Shown piece after piece: positions 45,705-64,000 of a DNA stretch of 64,000 bases. The translations under genes and the position numbers were made by a program. The stretch lies in NCBI GenBank assembly GCA_001304015.1, contig LJUY01000006.1, positions 22,605 to 86,604 of the forward strand, in the 5' to 3' direction. The DNA comes from a candidate division Zixibacteria bacterium SM23_81. GTDB taxonomy: Bacteria > SM23-81. Positions within the stretch are counted from its first letter, which is position 1; each line of letters starts with the position of its first letter. The notes below the pieces were generated by a model. That model was not told the origin of the DNA and made no database searches. It worked only from the letters and a program-made list of their open reading frames with translations.

Positions 45705-45824
45705 TTTCTCTCTCGGCTTGACCGATTTTGATGATCAGATGGAAACCAGATAGGGCGGCCAGCTGCTTTTTGTATACAGGAATTAAACCGCTCTCTTTTG
45801 TCGGTAACTCACAATTTTACCAAA

Positions 45825-48116: not shown

Positions 48117-48129
48117 TCAATCTGTGGAC

Positions 48130-48765
48130 TTAGAGATACCCGAGATCCTCTAGCCTTCTCTGGATCTTCTCTTCCTCTTCCTGGGAATAAACCTCATCCT
48201 CCTCCAGCGAAGCCATCTGGTCTGCCACCGTTGACAGGGCCGGAACGTAACCCAATTCTTCTAGCTTCCGGATGACCGTATCTCGACATTCCTCTGGGCC
48301 AGTCTTATCGACCTTTAGGAGAACTTCTGGATGAAGCGGCTCTTCATAAGGATCGTCCACCCCAGTGAAGTCCTTAATCTCTCCCGCCCTGGCCTTCTTG
48401 TACATGCCCTTCACATCTCTTTGCTCACAGACCGCCACAGGGGCAGCCACAAAGACTTCCACAAAGTTGGTGGTCTCCCTTCTGGCATTGTCTCTTGCCT
48501 CTCTATATGGAGAGACAAAAGAAACCAGCACAGCTACCCCATTTCGACTTAACAGCTTGGCTACGAAAGTGACTCGCTCGATGTTTTTGTCTCGGTCCTC
48601 TTTGGAAAAACCCAAATCGCGGGTCAGGCTCTGTCTGACGATGTCTCCATCCAGACGCTCGACCCTCAAATTTCTCCTCTTCAACTCTTCGGCCACCAAA
48701 TCGGCCACCGTCGTCTTGCCGGAGCAGGGAAGCCCTGTGAACCACACGGTACATCCTGGTTGCAT
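48130..48765 (-). CDS. cysC: Adenylylsulfate (APS) kinase
   Basis: P-loop GLPCSGKTT, LDGDIVRQSL and a ~40-aa acidic C-terminal tail. Confidence 0.9.
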   Translation of the reverse strand: MQPGCTVWFTGLPCSGKTTVADLVAEELKRRNLRVERLDGDIVRQSLTRDLGFSKEDRDKNIERVTFVAKLLSRNGVAVLVSFVSPYREARDNARRETTNFVEVFVAAPVAVCEQRDVKGMYKKARAGEIKDFTGVDDPYEEPLHPEVLLKVDKTGPEECRDTVIRKLEELGYVPALSTVADQMASLEEDEVYSQEEEEKIQRRLEDLGYL

Positions 48766-48784
48766 TTTAGGATCCTCCTTGAAC

Positions 48785-50170: not shown

Positions 50171-50457
50171 AAAGCATCTCCTTTCATCAGATAGTTAAAA
50201 GAGTAACTCTCATCCTCTCAGAATTCACAAAACCTTCATTTTGCTCAGAAAACTCTAGCACACGCGACAAGTTACTCTAAAAAGGATTTCTTGCTTCTTA
50301 TTTTCTTAACAAGCTTTCCTCGTTGTAAACCTTTCCCACCGATTCTCCGGTGCGACAAGAAAATCGAACCTCTTGTTTCTTCCCTGTGGCATGAAGGGTC
50401 TTTCTACGAAAACCTCGAGAACTTCCTAATGATCCAGCCAGGAAGTGAATATTCTGG

Positions 50458-51981
50458 TTATGGGCTAAAAGAATCCTGAAAAATCCCTTTGAGGACTTTT
50501 CCATCAGTATCAATGGGAATGCCTATTTTTAACATATGAAGTATAGTTGGAAAGAGATCGACTATTTCCGCTCCAAAGAACTGCTTTCCCTTTTGTATAA
50601 TTTTGCCGTGTGCGATGAAAATACCCTCCAAACTGTGATCTCCAGAAGCCCAACCTGTCAATTCATATAATCTCTTTTTATATGGACTCGTGGCATAGTT
50701 TTCGTAGGTGTGAAAAACCAAATCAGGTGCTAGGTCAGAAAAGGGACCATTGAAATATTCCTCACGGTAAAATACATCCCGAATGACGGCATGGTTGTTT
50801 TGAGGATCGCGGGTGTTCAACAAGGCCTGCTTTATAAAACTCCTTAATTTCTCATACTCTTCCCCCTGGCTTACAATACCCTCTGGCTCTCTGCCCCTTA
50901 AATTTACCTGTATCCCAACTTGCTGATCCCCAGCACAATAAGCCTTAGTGTTTTTCCAGGAAACTTGGCTTTTAGGAGAGAGTATCTTCCTTCGGCCCGA
51001 TAAATTCCTTAGAACTTGGCGTCTAAGCTTGTGTATAAAGGGAATGTCCAGCGCTCGTAAGAAAGCGAGAGTTCTGGCTTTCCCCTTGCGGAACTTAAGC
51101 AGGTGGTGGGTCATCAACCAATCATTGACATCAAACTGCTTATGCGCCGACTGAAAACCGTGATCTGAGATAAGAATCAACACGGTGTCTTCATCCAACC
51201 TGGCTCGGATTTCTCCTATAGCACTGTCCAACATCATGAAAAATTCATCTATCAATGGCATATACTTTTTAGACTCTTCAGCATTGAATTCGGGATGAGT
51301 ACCATCGATATACTTCCACAAGCAATGTTGCACTCTATCTGGTCCGGTAAAAACGACTATACAAAAATCTGGCTGATAGAGGTCGAGAAGAAAAAGTGTC
51401 GCCTCTTTTCTTATTGTGGTCATTTTTTTCACGTCTTCAATGAGATCGCTCACTCTATTTTTGTACCACTTCCAGACTAGATTTATGGGGTAGTCTCCGA
51501 TTTTCTCTTTAAGCTTCTTTCCCAGCTCCTCAGGATAGGTGAATGTGCTATTTGTACTCGGGGTAAGCATGCCCGAGATTAAAAAACCATTCACTGGCTG
51601 CGGTGGGTAAGTGAGGGGCACATTTATCACGCCAACCTTTTTGCTATTGCGACTTAAAATTCTCCATAAAGTCTCACTTTTCATTACTTTCGAATGGACA
51701 ACCCTCTTTCGGTAAAAATCGGAAGAGTCAGGGATTCTAAATCCAAAAATGCTGTGTTTCCCGGGTTTTTTCCCGCTCATGAAGGAGGCCCAAGCTGCCA
51801 TGGAATTTGGCGGAATTACAGATTTTAATTCACCAAAGGTCCCTGTTTTAATGAGCTCTGCCAAATTCGGCATTTTGCCCCTGGATATCATTGGGTCCAA
51901 TATTTTGAATGTGGCTCCATCTAAACCAATAACCATCACTTTGCTCTTCACATGTCCTCCATAGATGACCTTTTTATACAA
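50458..51981 (-). CDS. AlkP-superfamily PF01663-like protein, paralog 3
   Basis: VMVIGLDGATF, IPPNSMAAWASF...GKKPGKHSIFGF. 507 aa. The start is uncertain (ATG at 51981 or 51936). Confidence 0.75.
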   Translation of the reverse strand: MYKKVIYGGHVKSKVMVIGLDGATFKILDPMISRGKMPNLAELIKTGTFGELKSVIPPNSMAAWASFMSGKKPGKHSIFGFRIPDSSDFYRKRVVHSKVMKSETLWRILSRNSKKVGVINVPLTYPPQPVNGFLISGMLTPSTNSTFTYPEELGKKLKEKIGDYPINLVWKWYKNRVSDLIEDVKKMTTIRKEATLFLLDLYQPDFCIVVFTGPDRVQHCLWKYIDGTHPEFNAEESKKYMPLIDEFFMMLDSAIGEIRARLDEDTVLILISDHGFQSAHKQFDVNDWLMTHHLLKFRKGKARTLAFLRALDIPFIHKLRRQVLRNLSGRRKILSPKSQVSWKNTKAYCAGDQQVGIQVNLRGREPEGIVSQGEEYEKLRSFIKQALLNTRDPQNNHAVIRDVFYREEYFNGPFSDLAPDLVFHTYENYATSPYKKRLYELTGWASGDHSLEGIFIAHGKIIQKGKQFFGAEIVDLFPTILHMLKIGIPIDTDGKVLKGIFQDSFSP

Positions 51982-53146
51982 TAGCTCGATAAATATCGAT
52001 AACTCTTTCAGCGTTTCTTTTCCAAGTATGGTGCTTTCTTATATGCTCCATAATCTTAGATCCAAGCTCCTTCCGAAGCTTGGAATCATTAACCAGAATG
52101 AGGATTTTCTCTTTCAAGTCCTCTGCATCACCAGGATTTATCAAAATCCCATTTTTGCCATCCTCTATGACTTCTTGAACGGGTGCTGTACGCGGGGCAA
52201 TCACCGGTTTCCCCATGGCCCCGTACTCAAAAATCTTAATTGGCGAACCATTCCAATTGGAGTTGGGCATCACACAAATATCCATTGCTGCAATATGAGC
52301 GGGCACCGCCTCAAAGGGAATCCCACCGGTGAGCGTAAAATGTTCGCTTACGCCTCTGCCTTTTAAATTCTCTTCAAACTGCCTCCTATCCCTAAAGCGA
52401 CCAACTACAAGAAAATGTAGTTCCTTCCTCTCTCTGATCAAATCCTGGGCCAATCTTATGAGAAGCTCTACGCCATGATGTTTGTGCATACTTCCCACAA
52501 ACCCAATGACTATTTTACCTCGCAGACTATATTTATTCCGAATGTCTTGGAAGGCACTGCTAGAATCAAACAATTCAGTATCTACACCATTTGGCAAGAC
52601 ATGTATCTTCCTTGAAGGAACCCCTCTTTTGACAAGATAATCCCTCATAACCCCAGATATAGTGATTATGGCATTCGTACATTTTTCAACTTTTCTTTGA
52701 ATCAATGAGGCCAAGAATGAAAAGTGAGCTGGACCAAACCGACTTCTTGCCTCTATGGGGGCATTGATTTCCAGAATGTGGGGTATTTTGAGATCTCGCG
52801 CTATTGTTGAACTTGCCCAAAAAAAATAGGAATACCTTTCATAAATAAAGTCGGGGATCTCCCTCTTAAAAAAAGACTTATAAGAGCTTAAGAAATTGTA
52901 GTTATAGTATATTTTGTACCCATCTCTCACCATCGAAGCAATAGATAGGGGTAAAATGTACTTCTGGTTTGAGAAAGACAATTTGGCTTGGCTTTCTCTT
53001 GTGCCTTGCCCAGCAATTATGGGGACGACCATATGTCCAAGTTTACGATATGCCTCTATTAAATTGACTATATGAGATGTCGATCCTGTATAAACAGAAT
53101 TATCTATTCTTAGCCCTGGATTCCCAACAACATAAAGAATCTTCAT
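51974..53146 (-). CDS. Glycosyltransferase family 4 (GT-B, retaining)
   Basis: The C-terminal EYGAMGKPVIAPRTAPVQEVIEDGKNGILI motif is the GT1/GT4 E-x7-E region. Typical ~390-aa length. Confidence 0.8.
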   Translation of the reverse strand: MKILYVVGNPGLRIDNSVYTGSTSHIVNLIEAYRKLGHMVVPIIAGQGTRESQAKLSFSNQKYILPLSIASMVRDGYKIYYNYNFLSSYKSFFKREIPDFIYERYSYFFWASSTIARDLKIPHILEINAPIEARSRFGPAHFSFLASLIQRKVEKCTNAIITISGVMRDYLVKRGVPSRKIHVLPNGVDTELFDSSSAFQDIRNKYSLRGKIVIGFVGSMHKHHGVELLIRLAQDLIRERKELHFLVVGRFRDRRQFEENLKGRGVSEHFTLTGGIPFEAVPAHIAAMDICVMPNSNWNGSPIKIFEYGAMGKPVIAPRTAPVQEVIEDGKNGILINPGDAEDLKEKILILVNDSKLRKELGSKIMEHIRKHHTWKRNAERVIDIYRAIV

Positions 53147-53258
53147 GAGGTATCACTGCGTTTCCACTTATGGTTCAAGGTAACATTTTTAGGCACAGCA
53201 GTTGCTTTGATTCCCCTGAATGCGGTGAGAGAACTTGCTTTTTCGACTTTCTCTGCCT

Positions 53259-54410
53259 CTATTCAACAAAGGGATCATCTGCGCTAGCCAAAACTTCCAC
53301 TATTTCCGGTCTCATAATCTCCGAGGCCACCTCAGCGCCCTCGGTGATGATCCCCCGTATTTTGGTCCCGCTGGGAGTTAGCCACGAGTCTTTCTGGTGG
53401 GGACAGGTCTTAGCTGTGGCCATGTTCTCACAGGCTTGACAGTAAAAAGAGTGCTCGAAGAAGAGAGGTTGAATTCCTAGATCGGGAAAATCGGCGAAAA
53501 TCCTGTGTGCGGCATAGGTATCGTAATAATCGCCAACGCCAGCGTGATCCCGTCCGATGATGTGATGGGTACAGCCGAAGTTCTTTCTGACTATGGCGTG
53601 GAAAATGGCCTCTTTGGGCCCCGCGTAGCGCATCTGCCATGGCAGAATGCTCATCACCACCCTGTTCTGAGGATAGAAGTCGTCGATGAGAGTCTGATAG
53701 GCCTTTAGGATCAGCTCATCGGTAAAGTCGCCGCTTTTTTTTCTCCCGATAACTGGATTGATGAACAAACCGTCACAGATTTCCAAAGCACACTTCTGAA
53801 TATATTCGTGGGCTCGGTGGGGCGGATTTCGCGTCTGAAAGGCTACCACCGTATCCCATCTCCTTTTCCGAAATAGATAGCGAGTCTCCTTGGGAGAGAG
53901 ATTATAGCGCTTATATGGTATCCTGATGTCCTCCAGTAAATCCACAGCACCGCTCAAGAAGACATCGTGAAGGCCGAGGAATTTTTTCACTCCAGGATGT
54001 TTTTCATCGTCGGTTCCGAAAACGCCCCTGGCGATTTTCAATTTGTCAAATCGATATTTCTCCTCTAAATGTAATAGGGCCAGAGGAATTCCGGCCTCAT
54101 CCATAAGGGTGAGGGTTTGTCCTTCCTTCAAGAACCTGGCCTGAGATTCCTCCACGGCCAACAGAATGGGAATCGTCCAGGCCAGCCCTTTGGCCAAACG
54201 CCCCTCCTTGACCACAGATTCCACATCGGCGCTGCCCATGAATCCTTCCAGAGGACTGAAGACACCCCGAGCGAGATTCTGGACCTCAGAGACGGTCTCA
54301 GCAGACACGGTCAACTGAAACATTCCAGGAATCTCAGTCAGGATGTCTGCTCCTTTCTCTGGGCTCAATATTCGATTGACCAGTTTTCCACCATGAGGTT
54401 TAATCAACAA
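53259..54410 (-). CDS. sat: Sulfate adenylyltransferase (ATP sulfurylase, single-chain Sat type)
   Basis: QTRNPPHRAHE and GRDHAG motifs. 383 aa. Confidence 0.9.
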   Translation of the reverse strand: MLIKPHGGKLVNRILSPEKGADILTEIPGMFQLTVSAETVSEVQNLARGVFSPLEGFMGSADVESVVKEGRLAKGLAWTIPILLAVEESQARFLKEGQTLTLMDEAGIPLALLHLEEKYRFDKLKIARGVFGTDDEKHPGVKKFLGLHDVFLSGAVDLLEDIRIPYKRYNLSPKETRYLFRKRRWDTVVAFQTRNPPHRAHEYIQKCALEICDGLFINPVIGRKKSGDFTDELILKAYQTLIDDFYPQNRVVMSILPWQMRYAGPKEAIFHAIVRKNFGCTHHIIGRDHAGVGDYYDTYAAHRIFADFPDLGIQPLFFEHSFYCQACENMATAKTCPHQKDSWLTPSGTKIRGIITEGAEVASEIMRPEIVEVLASADDPFVE

Positions 54411-54497
54411 TATCCCATCTCCCTTCTATGTATGATTTCTAAAAACAGGTATAGGTCGAATCGAGCATATATTCTCCTCTTCAACTATCCCACCCGG

Positions 54498-55529
54498 CTA
54501 TTGGGAGCTTCTTTTGAACACCCCCTCTCCCCAGGTGCCGGCGTAGACGACATGAGGAGTAAAGGGAGCCACCGCCAGGGCTTTGACATCTACTTCGGTG
54601 AGCCCCTCGTTCCACTGCGCCCAGTTCTGGCCTGCATCAGTGCTTCGATAAACTCCATTGTTGGTAGCGGCGTATAAGCAGTCGGTGTTAGAGGGACTCA
54701 TGCCGATCACCCTCACATCCCTGGTTCCTCCAAATCCTTTGACGACATTGGTCCACAGCCCGGCCGCATTGGTACTCTTGTAAACGCCCATGACGTTTGA
54801 ACCGACATATAAAATATTCGGGTCGATGGGATTGATCAGAACCCATTGAATTCTCGCCGAGGGGCCATTTAGGTTAATCCCATTGTTGCCGACGGACCAA
54901 CTATCGCCGCCATCTTCACTTTTGTAAAAGTTATCGAATTTCCCTCCAGCGTAGACAATCTGGGAATTCTGGGGATGAACAGCCAAAGAGGCACGATTGT
55001 AATAGAAGATATAAAACAAAGTGTCGGCGCCATTATAACTCCTGTTGATACCACCATCACACCCAATGAAGAGGGTGTCCGAATGAGTAGGGTCGGTGGC
55101 TATGCTGTAAATAGTGGGATCCACGAGACCCACCTTTTTCCCCTCCCAACTCTCGCCTCCATCCTCGCTTTTAAAAACTCCAGACCCGTAAGTGCCCACA
55201 TACATTGTTTCCGGATGCAGCGCATCGAAAGCGATGGCGGATATCTGGGAATAAGTCCACCCACTGTCCAATCGCGTCCAAGTTTGGGCACCGTCGGTGC
55301 TTTTATAAAGACCACCCCAAGTACCACTGAAAATAATGTCGGAATTGCTGGGATGAACAGCTAAAAATCGCACAAAAAGATTCTCCAGACCAGAATTAAC
55401 CGCCGACCACTGATTTGAGTCAGAATCAGTGGGCGATTTTTTACCGCAGGATATGGCCAGGATACAAAAAAAGCACCCTAGGAGAAAAAACTTGGCGGCG
55501 ATGGACCTGTCTGTCGAATATAGGTTCAT
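54498..55529 (-). CDS. BNR/Asp-box repeat beta-propeller lipoprotein (Ycf48/sortilin-like)
   Basis: Lipoprotein signal (ILAISCG). Repeated S-x-D-x-G-x-T-W boxes (STDGAQTW, SEDGGESW, SEDGGDSW, STDAGQNW). Confidence 0.7.
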   Translation of the reverse strand: MNLYSTDRSIAAKFFLLGCFFCILAISCGKKSPTDSDSNQWSAVNSGLENLFVRFLAVHPSNSDIIFSGTWGGLYKSTDGAQTWTRLDSGWTYSQISAIAFDALHPETMYVGTYGSGVFKSEDGGESWEGKKVGLVDPTIYSIATDPTHSDTLFIGCDGGINRSYNGADTLFYIFYYNRASLAVHPQNSQIVYAGGKFDNFYKSEDGGDSWSVGNNGINLNGPSARIQWVLINPIDPNILYVGSNVMGVYKSTNAAGLWTNVVKGFGGTRDVRVIGMSPSNTDCLYAATNNGVYRSTDAGQNWAQWNEGLTEVDVKALAVAPFTPHVVYAGTWGEGVFKRSSQ

Positions 55530-55559: not shown

Positions 55560-57041
55560 CTAATCCCCCTGGGTTGATGTCATATCATATAATCCACCGT
55601 AAAGGTTCGTGAAGCTGGTCTCTATCACCGTGGGGAAAGTTCTCTTCATATAGTCTTTCAACTTTCCCTCCGGATCCATCAGCCATGGCCTGCCCAGGAC
55701 CAACCACGCCCGCTGGTGACCTTGAACGCGCGCCGCGATCATCTTCTCATGGAAGCTAGGTGACCAAAAAGCTGTGTGGACGGTGAGTGGACCCTGGTAG
55801 TAGTATGTGAACGGCTTCAGGGGTGCGGCCAAGATTACATCTCCATCTTCAGAATGTGCGCTTATATATTGCGCAGCCCACCGATAGCGCGCTTTGGCGT
55901 GTCTATCTTGGAAGTAATGGCCGTGGACAGAATATAAAGTGACAACGACGACGACTCCCATGAGCCCCCACCGGATGATCCCCCTTCGTGGGGCCAGAAG
56001 GCCTCGGGTCAGGATGAGTCCATAGGCTGGCAAGGCCACTGAGGCATAACGTACATTATAGGAGATCTGTGGCCACACCAGAGATACCAGACACCCGCCC
56101 ACGATGGGGGTTATCAGATAAAGCAGAATGAAAACCAGCCGCTCCCGATCCCGCCACAGAGATCGCAGACCCAGAGCAAAGATGGCTGCGAATAAAAGGG
56201 CTACTGGCAGAATCTGACTTAGGTAAGGTCGAAGGGTGCTCAGGGAGGCCGACCAGTGCAGCTCCGCTACAGAAGGGCCATAGCTAAATCCCAGGCTAAA
56301 TGCAAAAAAAGTATAGGGAACTGAGAAAACTTGAAGAGGATTTCCGCCAGCTCCTTGGGTCAAGAAGACCACATACCGCCCACCCCCGAGGAGAAGATAA
56401 ACGATGGGCAGGACCATAATTGCTACAATTCCCAGGGAATAGCCAAATCGACGTATGACAGGGCGGTACGTCTTCAGGAATATAAAGAAGAATGCCACTT
56501 GGCACAATAGGACGAAGATGGCATAATAATGTGTGTATATGGCCAATCCCATAGTTACAGCCCACCATACGCCTGGGCGACCCCTCTGCTCTTGAAGGAA
56601 CTTGACGAAATATAGCGCCGATGCTGCGCTCAGCAAGATGAGCAGACTGTACATCCTGGCATCCTGGGAATACCAGATGTGAAATGGGGAGATGGCCAAT
56701 AAAAAAGCGCACACAAGACCGTGTTTGGTATCCCAAAGGCTTCTCCCCAGCAGATAGGCAATCCCTAGGGTGGCTATCCCGAAAAGAGCTGGTAGCAATC
56801 TGATCATCACATCGCTGCGACCCAAGTAAAGCCAAAAATGAAGCAGGATGTGATACAGAACAGGCGTTTGGCAAAAGCGGATGGCTACTACCCCCAGGTC
56901 CCTGGCCGAGAGGCAGACACTATAAACTTCGTCATAAGAGAAACTCTGGCCACCCAGCCTCACGAGCCTGAGAACGGTGCCCAGCACCAAGATGAGCAAC
57001 AGATAGATGCTCACACGCTTTTTGGGGATGGCTTCATTCAT
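55560..57041 (-). CDS. GT-C fold membrane glycosyltransferase (ArnT/PMT-like, GT39/GT83, COG1807)
   Basis: About 12 predicted TM helices. First periplasmic loop has SFSYDEVY (the DE motif of PMT/ArnT-type transferases). Hydrophilic C-terminal domain. Confidence 0.75.
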   Translation of the reverse strand: MNEAIPKKRVSIYLLLILVLGTVLRLVRLGGQSFSYDEVYSVCLSARDLGVVAIRFCQTPVLYHILLHFWLYLGRSDVMIRLLPALFGIATLGIAYLLGRSLWDTKHGLVCAFLLAISPFHIWYSQDARMYSLLILLSAASALYFVKFLQEQRGRPGVWWAVTMGLAIYTHYYAIFVLLCQVAFFFIFLKTYRPVIRRFGYSLGIVAIMVLPIVYLLLGGGRYVVFLTQGAGGNPLQVFSVPYTFFAFSLGFSYGPSVAELHWSASLSTLRPYLSQILPVALLFAAIFALGLRSLWRDRERLVFILLYLITPIVGGCLVSLVWPQISYNVRYASVALPAYGLILTRGLLAPRRGIIRWGLMGVVVVVTLYSVHGHYFQDRHAKARYRWAAQYISAHSEDGDVILAAPLKPFTYYYQGPLTVHTAFWSPSFHEKMIAARVQGHQRAWLVLGRPWLMDPEGKLKDYMKRTFPTVIETSFTNLYGGLYDMTSTQGD

Positions 57042-57780
57042 GAGTATTTTTCACCTCGGGGACTCTCTGTTGCATCTGTTCAATTCCCAGAAGGATCTTC
57101 AACGCCGAGGCCACGTATCCCCACCCATCCCGCATAAATCGAGTTTTAGCCTGCCCCTTTTCTCGAGGTCGATACACCACGGGTATCTCGCCAACGGCCG
57201 CGGAGTCGCGAATGGCATTGTACATGAGGCGGAAATGAAAATCCCCATACCCATAAAAAATCCGATTCAGATCCCATCGATTCAACAGAGATCGTTTAAC
57301 GGCCAGGAATCCATTGGTATTATCGGTTGTCTTCAGTCCCAAGGTAATCTTGAGAAACCAATTGATGGCCAGGCTGAATATGCGGGCCCGGGCGTTCCCC
57401 TGAAAACCCCCCAGGTGCAAGTAGCGAGAGCCACTGACCAAGTCGTATTCCCCCACCTTCAGGAGCAGCGCCGGCAGGTCTTCAGGATTATGGCTGAAAT
57501 CGGCATCCATCAGAACCACAACATCCGCGTAAGATGCTTTAATACCTGCCTTTATCGCGGTGGCCAGACCCCTTTGGCCATTGCGCAAGACGAGCTTGAC
57601 CTGACTCATAGTTGAGCAGTTCTGCCTGACGACATCCGCTGTTCCGTCTGGGCTGTCATCGTCCACCACCACGATCTGGTAGTCGATGCCGGAATCGGCC
57701 ATGATGCGAGAGAGACTCTGGATCAGAGGGACGATGTTCTCCCTCTCATTGTATGTGGGTAGAATTACCGCAACATTCAT
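57034..57780 (-). CDS. Polyprenyl-phosphate glycosyltransferase, GT2 (ArnC/DPM1-like, short form)
   Basis: ILPTYNEREN, VVVDDDSPDGT and LMDADFSH (DXD-equivalent) motifs. 248 aa without C-terminal TM helices. Confidence 0.85.
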   Translation of the reverse strand: MNVAVILPTYNERENIVPLIQSLSRIMADSGIDYQIVVVDDDSPDGTADVVRQNCSTMSQVKLVLRNGQRGLATAIKAGIKASYADVVVLMDADFSHNPEDLPALLLKVGEYDLVSGSRYLHLGGFQGNARARIFSLAINWFLKITLGLKTTDNTNGFLAVKRSLLNRWDLNRIFYGYGDFHFRLMYNAIRDSAAVGEIPVVYRPREKGQAKTRFMRDGWGYVASALKILLGIEQMQQRVPEVKNTHE

Positions 57781-58907
57781 AGTTTCTTAAATCCTAAAAA
57801 ATTCTTGATCTCCTGGCAGACGAAGACAATTTGATCTTCCGTTAGGGTCGCAGATGAGGGCAGAGAGAGACCTTGCCCGTAAACGCGATCGGTGGTGGGA
57901 AACTCCTCCGACCACCTCCCCCGATAACATGGCTGACGATGAAGGGGATGAAAAAAACGCCTAGTGCCAACACCCGCTTTGCTCAAGTGCGCACCCAAGG
58001 CCCCGGGATCGTCCACCAAGATGTTGGTGAACCACGGCACGGCATCACAACGGGGGTCGCCAGCGGGAAAGCGGACAGTTTCCAATTCGGATAAGCATGC
58101 CCTATACAGCTCAATGCTGTTTCGCTTTCTTTCCAAAATGTGATCCAGTCTGGTTAACTGGGCCAGGCCAAGAGCTGCCTGGAGGTCGGTGAAGCAAAAA
58201 TTGTACCCGATGTGATGATGGATAAAAGTTCCCTTCTCCGTGCGCCCATGGTTTTTCAGAATTAAGCACCTTCGCTGGATCTGCTCATCATCGGTGGTGA
58301 TCATTCCCCCCTGGCCGGTGGTGATGGTCTTATTCCCGTAAAAGGAAAAACAGCCCACAGCGCCCAAACCTCCCACATGTCGATCCTGGAATTTAGCCCC
58401 CACTCCTTGGGCGGCATCCTCGACGACGACGAGACCATGCCGTCTGGCAATGGCTAAGATGGCCTCCATGTCTGCCGATTGACCGTAAAGATGCACTGGC
58501 ATGAGAGCGCGAGTCCTGGAGGAGATCTTCTCCTCGACGCTGGCTGGGTCTATATTGAAGGTGTTCTCGTCGATGTCTGCCAGTACCGGCGTCGCACCGG
58601 CCCATATCACCGAATTGGCTGTGGCGATGAAAGTCAGGTCTGGTATTATCACCTCATGGCCTGCTCCCACCCCAAGGGCTTTGAGACAGCAGTAGAGCCC
58701 GGCGGTGGCGTTGTTCACAGCAACGGCGTGACGACACCCAACCAGCTCAGCAAACTTCATCTCGAACAGATGAGTTTTCTCCCCCTCGATGAGCCAGGTG
58801 GACTCCACCACCTCAGCGAGCTGGCGGAGCTCTTCTTCACCAATCCAGGGCTCAATCTGCGGGATCACGCCTTCCTCATGGCCACCGATGTGCTTCTTTA
58901 CCCCCAT
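57777..58907 (-). CDS. DegT/DnrJ/EryC1/StrS-family PLP-dependent sugar aminotransferase (ArnB-like)
   Basis: VNNATAGL and the lysine motif FSFYGNKTITTGQGGM. Confidence 0.85.
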   Translation of the reverse strand: MGVKKHIGGHEEGVIPQIEPWIGEEELRQLAEVVESTWLIEGEKTHLFEMKFAELVGCRHAVAVNNATAGLYCCLKALGVGAGHEVIIPDLTFIATANSVIWAGATPVLADIDENTFNIDPASVEEKISSRTRALMPVHLYGQSADMEAILAIARRHGLVVVEDAAQGVGAKFQDRHVGGLGAVGCFSFYGNKTITTGQGGMITTDDEQIQRRCLILKNHGRTEKGTFIHHHIGYNFCFTDLQAALGLAQLTRLDHILERKRNSIELYRACLSELETVRFPAGDPRCDAVPWFTNILVDDPGALGAHLSKAGVGTRRFFHPLHRQPCYRGRWSEEFPTTDRVYGQGLSLPSSATLTEDQIVFVCQEIKNFLGFKKL

Positions 58908-58921: not shown

Positions 58922-60823
58922 TTAAAAGTAATACCAGATGGTCCTGTAATCATCCAAGTTCTCACCCATCTCCTCAAGGCGTCTCAGATAGCTCAGGATG
59001 GGGACATCTACGTGGATGAAGCTATCCACTGGAGAGATGTTCCGCTCCCAGGGAAAAAATTCGTAGATTCGCCGACCATCTGGGGTCAACATGATCACGT
59101 CGTGATCCTGCCAAGCGATAAGGTAGCTTTTTCCCAACCGGGGAACGTTGAAGACGGCGGCATCAGAGCGGACCATTCCCGAGAACAGCCGAACTTCCTC
59201 CCTTTTTTCCTGAAGCAGCCGAGCAATGGGAGCCCGGTAGGACTCCGTCTCCTCTTTTCCTTTGGCGACAAAGGTGTAGTAAGGTTCGATGCCTATAACC
59301 CGCAATTGTCGTCGAAGAGCTGCGCTTTCAAACCTCCTACTGTTGTATGTGGTAAAGACCAGCTGATTGTACACCGGGATGCCCCTGCGACGAATTCTGG
59401 CCACAGCCATGACCATCTCTGGAGTCACCTCGTAGAGGTGCTCCACGTGGGTAACTACGACGATCTCCCTTTTAGCTGGCACGTGGTACTTGCCCAGCAG
59501 GCTCACCAGAGAGGCTGTGAACCTCTGAGGGATGGTAACCAGAAGCCGCGTTCCTAGCCGAATCCGCTCTACATGGTCAATCTCGCTGAGGTTTCTCAAA
59601 AGAGCGTCGAGCTTATTGTCGCTCATCACCAGGGGATCTCCACCGGTGACCAGCACCTCTCTAATGGCCGGATGGTTCCTGATCCAGGTGAGCGCCGCCC
59701 TTATCGCCTTTTGGGAAGCCAAGGCCCGAGGGCCCAGCACCTGATGAATCTCCCAATTTCTCTGGCAGTAAACGCAGATCTGCGGACAAGAGTTATAAGG
59801 CTTAAAAGCCACAATCTGCGGATAGCGTCTGGTGATCAAATCCATGGGAGAGGTGTCATGCTCGCCCATATAGTCCGCGGAGAGTTCTCGATCCTTTTTA
59901 TGCTGGATCATCCAACTTACATAGCTTTCCGGGGGAATAACCTGAGCCCTGATGGCGCGATCGTTTCGGTGGCTGTCAGTCCTGTCTAGCAGAGATAAGT
60001 AAAATGGCGTAATGCCAAAAGGGAGGCCGTTGGCTCGGGCACGTGCAATCTGCCGGCCCTCTTCCTCGGTCAGTTCCACCAGGCAGTTCAGGGTTCGCTC
60101 ATCTCGAATGACCTGTTGTAGATGCCAATGCCAATCATCCCAATCCTTCCTCCGGCTACTAAAATAGCGCAGGATCCGTTGTCTGTTTCGCTGGCGTCTC
60201 CTAACTACCTTGGGGTTCAGACCCGATGGATAGCGTGCCATGAACCTGTCCATAGAACGGTACATGCCATCTAGAAGTCGGGACCTCGCCTGAGCGGCTC
60301 TCCTCCCTCTCATGTCCAAGTAAGTCGGACGCCTCATATGGTCGTAGATGCCGGATTGGCCACTTATTCCCCGGAAAAGGTGGATCAGATCCTCCACGAA
60401 ATCCTCGGTCACCGACTGCAAAACCTCCACATCATCACCCCTAATTAGGTGATACAGATAATAGAGAGAACTCACACCGGTGACCTTTTCATTCCGTTTG
60501 GCCAGAATATTCCTGAACACGGCCAAGCACTCCCGTATGTTCGCTCGCTCCAGGTACTGGGTCTCTTTGAATCCCATCTCCAAAGCTCTCTGCTGGCTGT
60601 CCAGGAATTGATAGAGGCGACGGCGGGCTTCCTCGAGACTCCTGCTCCGGGATAGGATAGTGCAGATTTGCGGAGACGCATTCTTGAGCCGTTGTAGCAA
60701 GGACTTCTCCATCTGCATTGGTTCAGAAGAAGCTTGACCCACTTTGCTCTTGGTCGAAACCCCCGTTTCGGTCACGGTTTGTCCTCCGTTAGTTTCTGGG
60801 GCAATCGGAGACCTCGGGAACAA
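58922..60823 (-). CDS. KamA-family radical SAM aminomutase with ~215-aa Arg-rich N-terminal extension
   Basis: CPQICVYCQR (C-x3-C-x2-C), a KamA-like region (DWDDWHWHLQQ, ITPFYLSLLDRTD) and downstream GGDPL. Several internal Met residues make the exact start uncertain. The ORF overlaps the upstream gene by 35 nt. Confidence 0.8.
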   Translation of the reverse strand: MFPRSPIAPETNGGQTVTETGVSTKSKVGQASSEPMQMEKSLLQRLKNASPQICTILSRSRSLEEARRRLYQFLDSQQRALEMGFKETQYLERANIRECLAVFRNILAKRNEKVTGVSSLYYLYHLIRGDDVEVLQSVTEDFVEDLIHLFRGISGQSGIYDHMRRPTYLDMRGRRAAQARSRLLDGMYRSMDRFMARYPSGLNPKVVRRRQRNRQRILRYFSSRRKDWDDWHWHLQQVIRDERTLNCLVELTEEEGRQIARARANGLPFGITPFYLSLLDRTDSHRNDRAIRAQVIPPESYVSWMIQHKKDRELSADYMGEHDTSPMDLITRRYPQIVAFKPYNSCPQICVYCQRNWEIHQVLGPRALASQKAIRAALTWIRNHPAIREVLVTGGDPLVMSDNKLDALLRNLSEIDHVERIRLGTRLLVTIPQRFTASLVSLLGKYHVPAKREIVVVTHVEHLYEVTPEMVMAVARIRRRGIPVYNQLVFTTYNSRRFESAALRRQLRVIGIEPYYTFVAKGKEETESYRAPIARLLQEKREEVRLFSGMVRSDAAVFNVPRLGKSYLIAWQDHDVIMLTPDGRRIYEFFPWERNISPVDSFIHVDVPILSYLRRLEEMGENLDDYRTIWYYF

Positions 60824-61946
60824 GGTTCTCTCCCCTGGAGACAGACTCGATGGAGGGTGCCAGCAGTCCCTTTTTCCGGGACATCATCCGAACCAAACGG
60901 GTCAGACCGGTTCCATACGTGACTAGTCCGCTCACTAACAGCAAGGACCAGTAACATATCAAACGACTGGTGAGAATGGTGACACCTCTGAATGCCCTGG
61001 CTAACCCGATGAGGGAGAACAGGGAGAACTGAACGGCATCGATCTGTCCCACAGCGCCTGGCGTGATGGGAATAGTGGCCACTAAGTTGACCGTGAAAGA
61101 AACGAAAGCCACCCAGGGCCATGGCAGGGGATAGTCCAGGGCCATAAGCACCAGATACGTGACCAAAGCGTCACAGAACCATATGATCAGCGTGAGGAAA
61201 AACGCCAGGAGTATCCGCCCCCGGTTTCTGGCGATGAGTCGCACATTGTCCATCAACCGAAATATGAAAAAGATAAACCTTTGATACCTTGCCGAGGCAA
61301 ATACACCCCGTAGCCTTTTCTCCGTTTTGGGCACGAAATACAGGAACATCAACAACAGGAGAAAACAGGAGAAGGTCACTTGATACAGGCTCAAGATCCA
61401 CCTGGGTAGCCCAAAGCTGAGGATGAAAAAGCTGAACACGAGGGAACAACTCAGGATAACAAACCCATCCAGGCCACGCTCCACGAAAATGCTGCCCAAT
61501 CCGACTCGAAGGGAGATCTTCCGATCGCTTCTCAGCAGATATGCCCGGGCGACATCGCCAGCCCTGGCGGGCACAACAGCGCTGATGAACCAGCCGACCA
61601 ACAAATAGGAAAAAAGCGTGACGGAGGATAGCTTTTGATCCAAAGCCCCCAAGAGAAGCTTCCAACGCAGCGTGCGCACCGCAAAGGAAGAGTAATATAA
61701 TGCAAAAGCAGCCACAATGAACCGTGGGTCCAGAGTCCGAAACTTCTCCCAGGACGCCTGGAAACCAGACAGCTTTAAGATGGCCAAAAAGGTCACCACT
61801 CCCAAGGCGACCAGAGTGGCTGCCCGTCGCATGCTGACCTTCTTGGAAACTGGAAAAGCCCCTGTTGACATCAGCTCAATTCCCACGATCGTACTCGCTG
61901 CCCCTCTCCACGGGATTGAAGGTCCCCCTGGTGATGAGACAGACAA
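60789..61946 (-). CDS. Polytopic membrane protein, flippase-like (LPG-synthase TM-domain / UPF0104-like)
   Basis: About 8 hydrophobic helices with an RWKLLL motif region. This is the family that commonly partners with GT2 enzymes. The likely start is the ATG at 61871 or 61832. Confidence 0.6.
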   Translation of the reverse strand: MSVSSPGGPSIPWRGAASTIVGIELMSTGAFPVSKKVSMRRAATLVALGVVTFLAILKLSGFQASWEKFRTLDPRFIVAAFALYYSSFAVRTLRWKLLLGALDQKLSSVTLFSYLLVGWFISAVVPARAGDVARAYLLRSDRKISLRVGLGSIFVERGLDGFVILSCSLVFSFFILSFGLPRWILSLYQVTFSCFLLLLMFLYFVPKTEKRLRGVFASARYQRFIFFIFRLMDNVRLIARNRGRILLAFFLTLIIWFCDALVTYLVLMALDYPLPWPWVAFVSFTVNLVATIPITPGAVGQIDAVQFSLFSLIGLARAFRGVTILTSRLICYWSLLLVSGLVTYGTGLTRLVRMMSRKKGLLAPSIESVSRGENLVPEVSDCPRN

Positions 61947-63237
61947 ATGGGTAAATCATCTCCACGACAAAGGGCAGCGGGTCTTCCAGCGCAAAATCGT
62001 CATAGGATGTGTCACGCCGAAAAAATTTCAGGTAATCCAAAAGGACCCTATGCTGGCTTATGGGCCTTCTGAGATAGTCGCACAGGGCCCGCCAGTCGCC
62101 CCAAAGCCAGCGCGTCTTGACGCCCAGTGGATATTCTAATACGGGATCAACATCCCCATCCACGGCCATGCGATACAGCAAATAAGGGAAGTCAACCCCA
62201 GAGGCGACACCCTGGTACAGCGAGCCCCAAAACCGCGGATTGATCTCCATGAGAACCGGCCCCCGGTCCTCGGTGAGAGTAAACTCAGCCTCGGCGATGC
62301 CGTGCCATTCCAAGCGCTCCAGAACTTGATGGGCAATCTGCTCCATCGCGTCGTTCCTGACGCTGGTTCGCAACACCGCTGTGCCTCCCTCAATAGGGAA
62401 CTCTCGCAAGAACTTGAAGGTGAATTTTGCGCGCAGTTTTCCCCGATTATACAACATGCATACCGAGTGTTTGGCACCCGCCACGTACTCCTGGATAACG
62501 GGCGCATCTTCTGGCTGGAACCCAAATCGAGATGTCAGCTCCCCATAGGCCTCCTTTAGCTCCCTAGAGGAGTTCACGTAACGAAGTCCAAAGGCTCCGT
62601 GAGCTCGCCGCGGTTTGACCACTGCCGGATAGCTGAGCTCGTCAGCGATCTCCTCCAGCTCTTCTATCTGGCCAACATGGTAAGTTTTGGGGATGGGTAT
62701 TCCCAACTGCTGGGCCAAAGCATAAAATCGATCCTTAGAATGAAGAGTCATAATCTGGTCGTAGTCGGGCAGAGGAACTTTCAATACAGGCGTCAATCGG
62801 TCTCGATAGCGAGCGATGATGAAACCCTCCTCATGCATGGGCATTAGCACGCGACACCCGAACTCTCGAGCCTTCCGGGCCAGAGTTTCAATAAACCGCT
62901 CCGGGTACAGGTATGGCGAGGGGTAGACGAATCGGCCATGACAATATCGAGAGTAAAAACACATAGACGGGGAAAAGCTATCTCCCGCCACGACCTTAAT
63001 TCCTCTCCGGGATAGGCTCTTGAGGGCCGTATAGGCCATCCGATTTCTCCCAAAAGTGACCAGAGCGCTCACAATGGTGATACCCCCGGTGGGCAGATCT
63101 CCTTTGCCCGAGAACTGAGAGAGGAGCTGAGATTCATGGGCCTGATGTGCCTCCATGGTCAGGAGATTTGCCTTCCTCCCCACCATGCCAAACTTCTTCT
63201 TCCGTGGCCATCTTGGTCTCCCAGACCCAGCGACCAC
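61876..63237 (-). CDS. ATP-grasp domain ligase
   Basis: The central fold shows KVVAGD pre-ATP-grasp, AVVKPRRAHGAFG and EINPRFWGS (the E-x-N motif). The start is probably an internal Met at about 63156. Confidence 0.7.
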   Translation of the reverse strand: MVAGSGRPRWPRKKKFGMVGRKANLLTMEAHQAHESQLLSQFSGKGDLPTGGITIVSALVTFGRNRMAYTALKSLSRRGIKVVAGDSFSPSMCFYSRYCHGRFVYPSPYLYPERFIETLARKAREFGCRVLMPMHEEGFIIARYRDRLTPVLKVPLPDYDQIMTLHSKDRFYALAQQLGIPIPKTYHVGQIEELEEIADELSYPAVVKPRRAHGAFGLRYVNSSRELKEAYGELTSRFGFQPEDAPVIQEYVAGAKHSVCMLYNRGKLRAKFTFKFLREFPIEGGTAVLRTSVRNDAMEQIAHQVLERLEWHGIAEAEFTLTEDRGPVLMEINPRFWGSLYQGVASGVDFPYLLYRMAVDGDVDPVLEYPLGVKTRWLWGDWRALCDYLRRPISQHRVLLDYLKFFRRDTSYDDFALEDPLPFVVEMIYPFVCLITRGTFNPVERGSEYDRGN

Positions 63238-64000
63238 CGTTCTGCCGATACCAGTCGATGGTCCGTCCTAATCCCTCCTCAAGCGATATCTGAGGCCGCC
63301 AGTTAAACAGGGTCATGGCCTTAAAATAGCTGCAATTCAAGCGCTCCACGTCCAATGGACGGAGTCTGACCTTTTCAACCTGGATGTCAACTTGCTGTCG
63401 TTCCATAAGTCGAGCGATGATCTGGGCCAGCTCCTCCACAGACCAATCCCGTCCTTGTCCCAGGTTGACCACTTCACCCACGGCCTTATCGCACTGCATC
63501 AGCTCGATGGCCCCTTTGACAGCGTCGTCCACGTATGTCAAGTCTCTTCGGGCTTTCACGTTCCCCAGCTTCAGACGATTGCCCCTGTCCAGCTGCGTAA
63601 TCAGCTCGGGGATGATGTAGGGGTGTGTTTCGCGAGGGCCATAAGTATTGAACTGGCGCAGGATAATGATGGGCAGATTTTGCTCCTTGTACAAACTATA
63701 GCAGAGCCTATCGGCGGCCAGCTTGCTCACGGCGTAGGTGGAACAGGGCCTCAGGGGATGGTGTTCGTCCATGGGCACATATCGTGCGCTGCCATAAACC
63801 TCCGAGGAGGAATACTGGAGAACCCTCTGAACCCCGGCATCTTTGCAGGCCAACATCACGTTTAAAGCCCCAGTGGCGTTTACCTCAAAGAACTTGCGAG
63901 GTCGGTCGTAACAATGCGGGATGTAAGGCTCGGCGGCCAAATTGAACACGCAGTCAATTCCATTCTGGCGCATAATGTCATTCAGGTTCGGATCTAAGAT
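63134..64000 (-). CDS. NAD-dependent sugar-nucleotide epimerase/dehydratase (extended SDR; UXS / ArnA-C-terminal-like). The 5' end lies beyond the window.
   Basis: FNLAA, Y-x3-K (YAVSK) and RQFNTYGPRE motifs. The reading frame continues upstream of the first in-frame ATG to the window edge. Confidence 0.8.
   Translation of the reverse strand: MLDPNLNDIMRQNGIDCVFNLAAEPYIPHCYDRPRKFFEVNATGALNVMLACKDAGVQRVLQYSSSEVYGSARYVPMDEHHPLRPCSTYAVSKLAADRLCYSLYKEQNLPIIILRQFNTYGPRETHPYIIPELITQLDRGNRLKLGNVKARRDLTYVDDAVKGAIELMQCDKAVGEVVNLGQGRDWSVEELAQIIARLMERQQVDIQVEKVRLRPLDVERLNCSYFKAMTLFNWRPQISLEEGLGRTIDWYRQNGGRWVWETKMATEEEVWHGGEEGKSPDHGGTSGP

What the first reader, a model, noticed from the sequence alone, without database searches (positions are those of the whole stretch)
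58922..60823. KamA-family enzyme carries an unusual ~215-residue arginine-rich N-terminal extension
The canonical KamA core (matching the C. subterminale DWNDWRWQV and ITPYYLSLID regions) starts around residue 220 of this ORF. The preceding ~650 bp are stop-free in frame and rich in Arg/Gln (for example VVRRRQRNRQRILRYFSSRRKDW). A stop-free stretch of that length in this GC range is unlikely by chance. The extension could be a substrate-carrier or partner-docking domain, or an RNA/lipid-binding region.
Basis: seen in the sequence. Interest (0 to 1): 0.55.

Follow-up and report, generated by a model that had tools for sequence, protein, structure and literature searches.

The report
Long-form KamA aminomutase, likely glutamate-specific
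The extra ~200 residues ahead of this radical-SAM aminomutase are a real, conserved helical domain that marks a large known family (the methanogen-type glutamate 2,3-aminomutases that make beta-glutamate), so the extension is ordinary for its family; the one new point is that here the gene sits inside a cell-envelope sugar-modification operon.

Summary
A minus-strand ORF (58922-60823) encodes a KamA-family radical SAM/PLP aminomutase. Its canonical core starts near residue 216 of the 633-codon ORF.

The true start is most likely GTG at 60775. It has a GGAGG site 7 nt upstream, just after the upstream gene's stop. That gives 617 aa.

The extension is not an ORF-calling artefact, and it is not unusual:
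- At least 597 species genomes from many bacterial phyla, plus Methanococcales, encode 590-650 aa homologues that align end to end.
- The extension has invariant residues and is predicted as a confident all-alpha domain.
- It has no Pfam model and no relative among solved structures.

The substrate-pocket residues are Lys/Asn where lysine 2,3-aminomutase has Asp293/Asp330. These are invariant across the family. The protein is 47% identical over its full length to the Methanococcus maripaludis long KamA. From my recollection of Tunckanat et al. 2022, that protein's C7 orthologue was shown to be a glutamate 2,3-aminomutase with a ~160-aa N-terminal extension.

Strong arginine richness is specific to a small clade, not to the family. 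In that clade, probably Zixibacteria-like, the gene is fixed inside a conserved Arn-like operon: dehydratase, ATP-grasp, flippase-like, KamA, sugar aminotransferase, GT2, GT-C.

Verdict: new member of a known kind, with low to moderate interest.

The parts
58922..60775 (-). CDS of the long-form KamA-family radical SAM/PLP aminomutase (617 aa plus stop), a probable glutamate 2,3-aminomutase
   Evidence: ORF. Start inferred from the RBS. Identical to the 617-aa P0002. TIGR00238 scores 317 bits. Foldseek to 2A5H gives E 1.8e-22.
60783..60787 (-). Shine-Dalgarno GGAGG, 7 nt upstream of the GTG start at 60775-60773. The upstream gene's TAA stop lies at 60789-60791.
   Evidence: Read directly from the sequence.
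60710..60775 (-). Residues 1-22: a poorly conserved and probably disordered N-terminal tail
   Evidence: pLDDT is below 50 for residues 1-21. Mean column identity is 0.29. The length of this leader ranges from 0 to 82 aa across homologues.
60161..60709 (-). Residues 23-205: the conserved all-alpha N-terminal domain, which is the 'extension'. Invariant residues are R51, E96, S102, F126, G139, R164, L168, Y182, G185 and R194.
   Evidence: Alignment A1. AF2 helices 18-204 with pLDDT mostly above 90. 193 representative clusters found by HMMER. No Pfam or PDB relative.
58925..60160 (-). Residues 206-617: the KamA catalytic core plus a family-specific C-terminal beta/alpha domain that ends in the conserved ...DYRTIWYYF
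59765..59788 (-). Radical SAM cluster motif C330-P-Q-I-C334-V-Y-C337, followed by Q-R339. R339 corresponds to LAM R134, the alpha-carboxylate ligand.
   Evidence: Sequence, alignment to 2A5H, invariance in A1.
59261..59263 (-). K505, at the position of LAM Asp293 in the substrate side-chain pocket. Invariant in the family.
   Evidence: alignment (PYYTFVAKGKEE against PYYIYQCDLSLG)..
59147..59149 (-). N543, at the position of LAM Asp330. Invariant in the family.
   Evidence: Motif FNVPRLGK against LAM VVDAPGGGGK. The LAM motif is recalled from memory, because the alignment stops at residue 309. Invariance.
59129..59131 (-). K549, the presumed PLP-binding lysine (LAM Lys337). Invariant in the family.
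   Evidence: The motif comparison rests on my knowledge of the LAM sequence.
60789..61946 (-). Upstream operon gene: flippase-like membrane protein (TIGR00374 / PF03706 LPG_synthase_TM)
   Evidence: Conserved neighbour.
61876..63237 (-). Operon gene: ATP-grasp ligase. The real start is probably downstream of the ORF's first GTG, since homologues are 398-434 aa.
63134..63973 (-). Operon gene: NDP-sugar 4,6-dehydratase (LegB-like). The NCBIfam match starts at profile position 69 of 297, so its true start probably lies upstream of this ATG, at or beyond the window edge.
57777..58907 (-). Downstream operon gene: DegT/PseC/LegC-type sugar aminotransferase. It begins 14 nt after the KamA stop.
57034..57780 (-). 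Operon gene: GT2 polyprenyl-phosphate glycosyltransferase (ArnC/AglJ-like). It overlaps the end of DegT by 4 nt.
55560..57041 (-). Operon gene: GT-C membrane glycosyltransferase (PMT_2, ArnT/Agl23-like)

Best explanation
The gene encodes a long-form KamA-family radical SAM/PLP 2,3-aminomutase of 617 aa, starting at GTG 60775.

The N-terminal ~185-residue helical domain plus a short disordered tail is a fixed, family-defining part of the enzyme. It is not an ORF artefact and it is not an add-on peculiar to this genome.

The enzyme most likely converts L-glutamate to beta-glutamate. A [4Fe-4S] cluster on C330/C334/C337 would reductively cleave SAM. The 5'-deoxyadenosyl radical would abstract the substrate's C3 hydrogen. 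The amino group, held as a PLP aldimine (K549 in the resting state), would migrate through an azacyclopropylcarbinyl radical. K505 and N543 replace the two aspartates that hold the lysine epsilon-ammonium in LAM, so the pocket suits a carboxylate side chain.

The N-terminal domain most likely acts in cis. It would serve as a structural, oligomerisation or active-site-capping module that packs on the core. It may compensate for the loss of LAM's inter-subunit zinc site. This step is inferred, not shown.

In this lineage the gene is embedded in a conserved Arn-like operon. The beta-amino acid is therefore probably consumed by the neighbouring ATP-grasp ligase to acylate an amino sugar, or amidate an acidic sugar. 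That sugar would be carried on polyprenyl phosphate, flipped and transferred to an envelope acceptor. This is also inferred.
For: The extension is real and conserved:
- RBS and start.
- Homologues of 590-650 aa align from about residue 24 to 617 at 47-90% identity, in many phyla and in Methanococcales.
- Ten residues inside the extension are invariant.
- Distant members are on average 39% identical to the query in the extension and 57% in the core.
- Full-length AF2 gives pLDDT 89.5 and pTM 0.88, with helices 18-204 mostly above 90.
- HMMER with the extension alone finds 193 representative clusters. In the full-length (~600-aa) hits, and in the longer fusions, the domain lies directly ahead of where the KamA core sits. 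Most of the rest are short, fragment-length proteins.

Aminomutase identity:
- TIGR00238 is above its cutoff.
- LAM structure match.
- CxxxCxxC, the R134 equivalent and the PLP Lys are invariant.

Glutamate specificity:
- D293 is K505 (alignment) and D330 is N543. Both are invariant.
- The best-scoring specific NCBIfam model is glutamate 2,3-aminomutase at 238 bits. Lysine scores 196, arginine 168 and EpmB 132.
- 47% end-to-end identity to the M. maripaludis C5 long KamA.
- The existence of a methanogen glutamate 2,3-aminomutase that makes the osmolyte beta-glutamate is cited (Tunckanat et al. 2022).
- The identity of that enzyme (MmarC7_1783, ~160-aa extension) is from my memory of the abstract.

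N-domain acting in cis:
- Its length is constant at 173-190 aa.
- pTM is 0.61 when the domain is modelled alone and 0.88 in context.
- The Zn ligand Cys268 is replaced by Arg, and there are no C-terminal cysteines.

Operon:
- Gaps or overlaps of 14 nt or less between KamA and its flanking genes and through the genes downstream of it.
- Identical gene order in L004, L085, L086 and L087, and partly in L005, at 66-77% protein identity.
Against: - No activity data exist for this protein or for any bacterial member.
- It fails the curated cutoff of the canonical glutamate 2,3-aminomutase equivalog (238 against 650 bits).
- The K/N rule for glutamate specificity and the MmarC7_1783 result are recalled from the literature. 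I could not read either paper here.
- An older review states that NMR labelling argued against an aminomutase route to beta-glutamate in methanogens.
- The D330-to-N543 correspondence needs a one-residue gap and lies outside the HMMER alignment.
- I could not inspect model coordinates, so contacts between the N-domain and the core or active site are not shown.
- Outside this clade the gene has no conserved neighbours. The glycan link is therefore clade-specific and rests only on gene order.
Confidence: 0.7

Rival explanations
1. The extension is an ORF-calling artefact. Under this reading translation starts at an internal Met near the KamA core (about 410-450 aa), and the upstream stop-free stretch is chance or a decayed remnant.
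For: The maximal ORF does begin at a weak TTG that overlaps the upstream gene. Canonical KamA/Eam enzymes are about 330-420 aa (profile lengths; 2A5H is 416 aa).
Against: - A strong RBS sits in front of GTG 60775.
- The extension is conserved with invariant residues across more than 60 aligned sequences and at least 597 species genomes.
- Codon-position GC is the same as in the core.
- AF2 confidence is above 90.
- Homologues of the extension alone reach E values as low as 1e-35.
Confidence: 0.01
2. The enzyme is a 2,3-aminomutase for a substrate other than free L-glutamate. Candidates are aspartate, 2-aminoadipate, glutamine or a sugar-linked or carrier-linked amino acid. Under this reading the N-terminal domain recognises that larger substrate or a partner protein of the glycan pathway.
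For: - The score is far below the Eam equivalog cutoff.
- In this clade the gene is fixed in a glycan operon, next to an ATP-grasp ligase and a flippase-like protein.
- The N-domain is unusually basic only in this clade, at +8 to +20.
- In Bacteroidales the gene lies near saccharopine-dehydrogenase-like genes in 9 of 83 loci.
Against: - The pocket residues K505 and N543 and all catalytic residues are invariant from Methanococcus to this clade.
- Only 9 clade-specific substitutions occur at otherwise conserved positions. They are mostly conservative and none is at a known active-site position.
- In most genomes the gene stands alone, as expected for an enzyme that acts on a free metabolite.
Confidence: 0.2
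3. The N-terminal domain is a regulatory or sensor module that tunes aminomutase activity to osmotic state, for example by sensing salt, K+ or ionic strength, or that docks a reductant. Under this reading it is not a structural part of the catalytic unit.
For: - Family members in Methanococcales are linked to osmolyte (beta-glutamate) production.
- The domain is a separate all-helical unit ahead of the core.
- Its surface charge varies widely between lineages, as might be expected of an environment-tuned module.
Against: - It has no similarity to any known sensor or docking domain.
- Its invariant residues and constant length suggest tight integration with the core.
- No cofactor-binding motif or Cys/His cluster is conserved in it.
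- This is not tested by anything I could run.
Confidence: 0.15

Closest known systems
Methanogen-type glutamate 2,3-aminomutase (Methanococcus maripaludis MmarC7_1783; Tunckanat et al., Biochemistry 2022, cited)
   Same: Same architecture, with an N-terminal helical extension followed by a KamA core and a family-specific C-terminus. The protein is 47% identical end to end to the M. maripaludis C5 orthologue P0346 and 54% identical to the M. igneus protein. The CxxxCxxC motif, the PLP Lys and the K/N pocket residues are the same.
   Different: This one is bacterial and probably Zixibacteria-like, since its closest named relatives are Zixiibacteriota at 71-77%. Its N-domain is much more basic. 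The gene sits inside a glycan-modification operon instead of standing alone. I could not confirm that the tested C7 protein is in the same 90% cluster as P0346. The paper's details are from memory.
Canonical glutamate 2,3-aminomutase Eam (Clostridioides difficile; NCBIfam TIGR04368; Ruzicka & Frey 2007)
   Same: It is the best-scoring specific NCBIfam model (238 bits), and it aligns from ORF residue 180, which is before the LAM-like core. From memory of the paper, Eam has the same Lys/Asn substitution of LAM Asp293/Asp330.
   Different: The score is well below the equivalog cutoff of 650. Eam is about 404-420 aa and lacks the ~165-aa helical domain. The C-terminal region also differs.
Lysine 2,3-aminomutase KamA/AblA (C. 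subterminale 2A5H; TIGR03820)
   Same: Same fold (Foldseek E 1.8e-22), the same radical SAM and PLP motifs, and the same Arg134-equivalent carboxylate ligand.
   Different: Asp293 and Asp330 are replaced by Lys and Asn. The Zn-site Cys268 is replaced by Arg, and the C-terminal Cys triad is absent. There is an extra ~205-aa N-terminus. The model scores 196 bits against a cutoff of 525.
Arn pathway (ArnB/ArnC/ArnT: L-Ara4N modification of lipid A) and archaeal Agl-type polyprenyl-phosphate glycosylation, as an analogue for the surrounding operon
   Same: The operon has a sugar aminotransferase, a GT2 polyprenyl-phosphate sugar transferase with ArnC/AglJ-like hits, a flippase-like protein and a GT-C transferase, all in one operon. 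The host is a diderm, since the window also encodes a TonB-dependent receptor and SurA.
   Different: It contains a 4,6-dehydratase instead of ArnA. It also has an ATP-grasp ligase and a radical SAM aminomutase, neither of which has a counterpart in Arn. All matches are far below the equivalog cutoffs.

Membership tests
KamA family radical SAM/PLP aminomutases (TIGR00238) | Family HMM score above the curated cutoff | tested here: met
   317.3 bits against a cutoff of 199.2, over residues 216-564 of the 633-aa ORF.
KamA family radical SAM/PLP aminomutases (TIGR00238) | CxxxCxxC [4Fe-4S]/SAM motif | tested here: met
   C330-PQI-C334-VY-C337 (59765-59788). Aligned to the LAM CSMYCRHC motif and invariant in 64 sequences.
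KamA family radical SAM/PLP aminomutases (TIGR00238) | PLP-binding lysine (LAM Lys337) in a G-K motif after the last core strand | tested here: met
   K549 in FNVPRLGK is invariant. Its correspondence to LAM PGGGGK337 is made by motif comparison from memory of the LAM sequence, not by a tool alignment.
KamA family radical SAM/PLP aminomutases (TIGR00238) | LAM-like three-dimensional fold | tested here: met
   The AF2 model matches 2A5H with Foldseek E 1.8e-22 and TM (target-normalised) 0.73.
Lysine 2,3-aminomutase (KamA/AblA, TIGR03820) | Asp293 and Asp330 binding the lysine epsilon-ammonium; equivalog HMM cutoff | tested here: not met
   D293 is K505 and D330 is N543 (motif comparison). The score is 196 bits against a cutoff of 525.
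Lysine 2,3-aminomutase (KamA/AblA, TIGR03820) | Inter-subunit zinc site (Cys268 plus the C-terminal Cys375/377/380) | tested here: not met
   Cys268 aligns to Arg (the NSRRFE motif). There are no cysteines in the C-terminal 100 residues.
Canonical glutamate 2,3-aminomutase (Eam, TIGR04368) | Equivalog HMM score above the curated cutoff | tested here: not met
   237.9 bits against a cutoff of 650. It is nevertheless the best specific model.
Canonical glutamate 2,3-aminomutase (Eam, TIGR04368) | Lys and Asn at the LAM Asp293/Asp330 positions (criterion recalled from Ruzicka & Frey 2007, not readable here) | tested here: met
   K505 and N543 are invariant in A1.
Long-form (methanogen-type) glutamate 2,3-aminomutase | Homologous ~160-200 aa N-terminal helical extension fused to the KamA core | tested here: met
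   End-to-end alignment with M. maripaludis P0346 (residues 25-617 against 8-594, 47% identity) and with M. igneus P0021. An N-domain-only HMMER search recovers the family.
Long-form (methanogen-type) glutamate 2,3-aminomutase | Conversion of L-glutamate to beta-glutamate | not testable with these tools
   This needs an anaerobic enzyme assay or heterologous expression with metabolite detection.
Arn-like polyprenyl-phosphate amino-sugar modification system (operon context) | Co-operonic sugar aminotransferase, GT2 polyprenyl-P transferase, flippase and GT-C transferase | tested here: inconclusive
   All four domain types are present and syntenic in 5 related contigs. Every match is far below equivalog cutoffs, and neither the acceptor nor the sugar is known.

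The most novel reading that the evidence does not exclude
In this Zixibacteria-like clade, a glutamate-2,3-aminomutase-type enzyme has been recruited into an Arn-like envelope pathway. It would make a beta-amino acid, probably beta-glutamate. The adjacent ATP-grasp ligase would couple that to a 4-amino-4,6-dideoxy sugar or to an acidic sugar. The aminoacylated sugar would be loaded on polyprenyl phosphate by the GT2, flipped by the MprF-TM-like protein and transferred by the GT-C enzyme to lipid A or another envelope glycan. This would be the first beta-glutamyl envelope decoration, and the first case of a radical SAM aminomutase as a dedicated part of a cell-surface glycan pathway. The clade-specific, strongly basic N-domain might tether the enzyme to the membrane-bound machinery.
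Probability: 0.3. Interest if true: 0.55.

Novelty: new member of a known kind. Interest (0 to 1): 0.3.

Why it matters
For annotation: genes of this type are labelled 'lysine 2,3-aminomutase' or generic 'KamA family' in public data. Their pocket residues argue against lysine and for glutamate, so hundreds of genomes probably carry a mislabelled beta-glutamate synthase.

For enzymology: the ~185-residue helical domain is universal in the family. It has no Pfam model and no structural relative, and its role is unknown, so it is a defined target for truncation and structure work.

For envelope biology: the fixed placement of the gene in a sugar-modification operon in one clade gives a testable lead to a beta-amino-acid-decorated glycan or lipid. 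None of this overturns current understanding.

Tried and rejected
- Word-indexed homologue search with the extension alone found only one near-identical fragment. This was a sensitivity limit, not absence. Full HMMER found 193 clusters.
- Searching genomes with the N-domain alignment failed because it has no stretch conserved enough. I used the full-length alignment instead.
- Looking for family-wide conserved neighbours found none. The best neighbour family occurs in 9 of 83 loci and is a lineage-restricted saccharopine-dehydrogenase-like pair. I rejected 'conserved partner gene' as a general explanation for the N-domain.
- A stand-alone N-domain protein (P0129) turned out to be an in-frame TGA at a conserved Trp/Tyr codon within an otherwise intact fused gene. 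I rejected it as evidence for a trans-acting domain.
- RNA- or lipid-binding by a conserved basic surface was rejected for the family, because net charge is not conserved.
- The key papers could not be read: Tunckanat 2022 and Ruzicka & Frey 2007, and MJ0634 returned no literature. Their content is cited from memory where it is used.
Full report
**1. Observation**

The minus-strand ORF 58922..60823 (633 codons from a TTG) is present. NCBIfam TIGR00238 ('KamA family radical SAM protein') matches ORF residues 216-564 at 317 bits against a cutoff of 199. Clostridium subterminale lysine 2,3-aminomutase (PDB 2A5H) aligns to residues 225-537.

The stretch ahead of the core is stop-free. From the window's base composition, the chance of about 205 stop-free codons is near 8e-5. 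GC at the three codon positions is the same in the extension (0.54/0.42/0.63) and the core (0.57/0.40/0.63).

The TTG overlaps the upstream gene by 35 nt. Directly after that gene's TAA (60791-60789) the sequence reads C-GGAGG-ACAAACC-GTG. The likely start is therefore GTG 60775, giving 617 aa. This is exactly the length and N-terminus of the identical database protein P0002 and its 79-90% relatives. Residue numbers below follow this 617-aa protein.

**2. Is the extension real?**

Yes. A full-length search returned proteins of about 590-650 aa covering 95-100% of the query. These include Zixiibacteriota (71%), KSB1, Marinimicrobia/Fidelibacterota, Bacteroidota, Desulfobacterales, Thermoanaerobaculia, Eremiobacterota and the archaeon Methanotorris igneus (598 aa, 54%).

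The 80 best hits align from about residue 24 to 617, so they include the extension. One of them is the cultured Prolixibacter denitrificans.

In a 64-sequence alignment (A1), the extension contains invariant residues R51, E96, S102, F126, G139, R164, L168, Y182, G185 and R194. Distant members average 39% identity to the query in the extension and 57% in the core.

HMMER with the extension alone, run against 1.84 billion representatives, found 193 clusters at E<=1e-3, with scores down to 1e-35. In the full-length proteins of ~600 aa the domain lies directly ahead of the core, and many other hits are fragment-length. A few are longer fusions, such as DnaJ...M54 peptidase and TetR_N.

AlphaFold2 on A1 gives pLDDT 89.5 and pTM 0.88. 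Residues 1-21 are disordered. Residues 18-204 form about ten helices, mostly above pLDDT 90.

**3. Is it unusual?**

No. This is the standard architecture of a very large family. 4627 database clusters score E<=1e-100 against the M. igneus protein.

The 'arginine-rich' character is modest: Arg is 14.6% in the extension and 11.2% in the core. It is also clade-specific. The N-domain's net charge is +8 to +20 in the 13 closest relatives, but the family median is +2 with a range of -7 to +20.

The quoted string VVRRRQRNRQRILRYF... is the last helix (188-204). Its consensus in the family is V-I-x-x-R-x-x-N-R-x-R-I-L-x-Y-F. This helix already aligns to the N-terminus of the canonical glutamate 2,3-aminomutase model, since TIGR04368 aligns from ORF residue 180. 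The part that is truly extra relative to that enzyme is therefore about 165 aa.

**4. What the enzyme is**

The radical SAM motif C330-x3-C334-x2-C337, R339 (LAM Arg134, the alpha-carboxylate ligand) and K549 (LAM Lys337, the PLP lysine) are all invariant.

The two aspartates that bind the lysine epsilon-ammonium in LAM are replaced. Asp293 aligns to K505 (PYYTFVAKGKEE against PYYIYQCDLSLG). Asp330 corresponds to N543 (FNVPRLGK against VVDAPGGGGK). That second comparison is mine, made from the known LAM sequence, and it needs a one-residue gap. Both K505 and N543 are invariant across the family.

From my memory of Ruzicka & Frey 2007, Lys/Asn at these positions is the signature of glutamate 2,3-aminomutase. 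I could not read the paper here. In line with that, the best specific NCBIfam model is glutamate 2,3-aminomutase at 238 bits. Lysine scores 196, arginine 168 and EpmB 132. All are far below their equivalog cutoffs.

The LAM zinc site is absent. Cys268 aligns to Arg, and the C-terminus has no cysteines.

**5. Link to the literature**

A 2026 preprint cites Tunckanat et al. (Biochemistry 61:1077, 2022). [quoted passage not shown] It is cited for archaeal production of beta-glutamate as an osmolyte (the reference is also seen). The paper itself is not held.

From my memory of its abstract, the new enzyme is MmarC7_1783. It is a KamA homologue with a ~160-aa N-terminal extension. Its substrate-binding residues suggested glutamate, and its expression in a methanogen produced beta-glutamate.

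It includes P0346 (strain C5, A4FXI7, 594 aa) and other strains. Our protein is 47% identical to P0346 from residue 25 to 617, N-domain included, and P0346 has the same K and N pocket residues. I could not verify that the C7 protein is in that 90% cluster.

One caveat: an older review says early NMR labelling argued against an aminomutase route to beta-glutamate in methanogens. The 2022 title contradicts this.

**6. The N-terminal domain**

Its length is nearly constant at 173-190 aa. Modelled alone it reaches pTM 0.61, against 0.88 for the whole chain. This fits a helical array that packs on the core and is not an autonomous globule.

A seemingly stand-alone copy (P0129, 195 aa) is followed in the same frame by the core. 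The two are separated only by one TGA at the conserved Trp/Tyr of the DWxD[WY]xWH motif. It is a mutation, an error or a recoding event, not a separate subunit.

My best inference is that the N-domain is an integral structural, oligomerisation or active-site-capping module. It may compensate for the lost Zn clamp of LAM. I could not examine coordinates, so this remains an inference. Regulatory, osmosensing or reductant-docking roles are not excluded.

**7. Genomic context**

In the window the gene lies in a tight same-strand operon, listed here 5' to 3' on the minus strand:
- 4,6-dehydratase, LegB-like (63134-63973+)
- ATP-grasp ligase (61876-63237)
- flippase-like TIGR00374/LPG_synthase_TM protein (60789-61946)
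- KamA (58922-60775)
- DegT/PseC/LegC-type sugar aminotransferase (57777-58907)
- GT2 polyprenyl-phosphate glycosyltransferase, ArnC/AglJ-like (57034-57780)
- GT-C PMT_2 protein (55560-57041)

From KamA downstream the gaps are 14 nt or less, or the genes overlap. The same order recurs in five independent contigs whose KamA is 66-77% identical: L004, L005 (partial), L085, L086 and L087. In each it is flanked by two more SDR epimerases, Phosphodiest-family genes, a BNR/Sortilin-like protein, ATP sulfurylase and a polysaccharide deacetylase.

Outside this clade none of these neighbours is present. Family-wide, no neighbour is conserved.

The clade differs from the rest of the family at only nine otherwise conserved positions, none catalytic. 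The chemistry is therefore probably unchanged. In this lineage the product is likely consumed by the ATP-grasp ligase to decorate an amino sugar or acidic sugar on a polyprenyl-phosphate carrier.

The host is a diderm. The same window encodes DnaE, SurA, a TonB-dependent receptor and an SLT transglycosylase.

**8. Verdict**

The claim of unusualness is not supported.

The feature is a new member of a known kind: the long-form, methanogen-type glutamate 2,3-aminomutase family. That family is widely mis-annotated as lysine 2,3-aminomutase.

Two points remain open and are mildly interesting:
- the function of the universal N-terminal helical domain, which has no known homologue;
- the clade-specific recruitment of the enzyme, with an unusually basic N-domain, into an Arn-like envelope glycan operon.

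Interest is 0.3.

Noticed in passing
L088 312-2108 (also L089, which is the same contig as L047): A long-KamA homologue is split into a 195-aa 'N-domain' gene and a 386-aa core gene. The only cause is one in-frame TGA, exactly at the conserved Trp/Tyr of the DWxD[WY]xWH motif. It could be a TGG>TGA mutation, a sequencing error or TGA=Trp decoding in this 'uncultured Pseudomonadota' MAG.
   Followed up: partly
P0150 (926 aa, sequence): A family member whose CxxxCxxC motif is degraded (…SQSILYC…) and whose PLP lysine is replaced by Arg. It also carries a ~330-aa acidic, low-complexity leader. It is probably a catalytically dead paralogue that retains the N-terminal helical domain.
   Followed up: no
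window 39217-46457 (minus strand): Two NRPS modules with Condensation, AMP-binding and PP-binding domains. The downstream one (39217-42501) has a TubC_N docking domain. They are preceded by a 210-aa MbtH-like protein whose C-terminal half gives an odd hit to CBF_beta.
   Followed up: no
window 46755-55529 (minus strand): Three Phosphodiest (alkaline-phosphatase superfamily) genes, an APS kinase, an ATP sulfurylase, a GT4 glycosyltransferase and a BNR/Sortilin-like protein lie next to the glycan operon. Two Phosphodiest genes, the sulfurylase and the BNR/Sortilin-like protein recur beside the same operon in L004, L085, L086 and L087. This suggests a larger sulfated or aminoacylated glycan locus.
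   Followed up: partly
window 60161-60709 (N-domain), compared across alignment A1: The N-domain's net charge is +8 to +20 (Arg 14-19%) only in the 13 sequences of the operon-associated clade. In the rest of the family it is about neutral. The core is also somewhat more basic in this clade.
   Followed up: partly
L021 745-2646 and 6083-7870: A Vulcanimicrobiota contig carries two long-form KamA paralogues about 3.4 kb apart.
   Followed up: no
L037, L053, L070 and other Bacteroidales loci, 1-3 kb downstream of the KamA gene: A pair of saccharopine-dehydrogenase-like genes (LKR-like and SDH-like) recurs near the long KamA in 9 of 83 loci. This may be lineage synteny or a link to lysine/glutamate metabolism.
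   Followed up: no
window 16339-19314 (minus strand): A 991-aa ORF with no Pfam hit at E<=1e-8 lies next to a TonB-dependent receptor-like gene (19345-22350).
   Followed up: no
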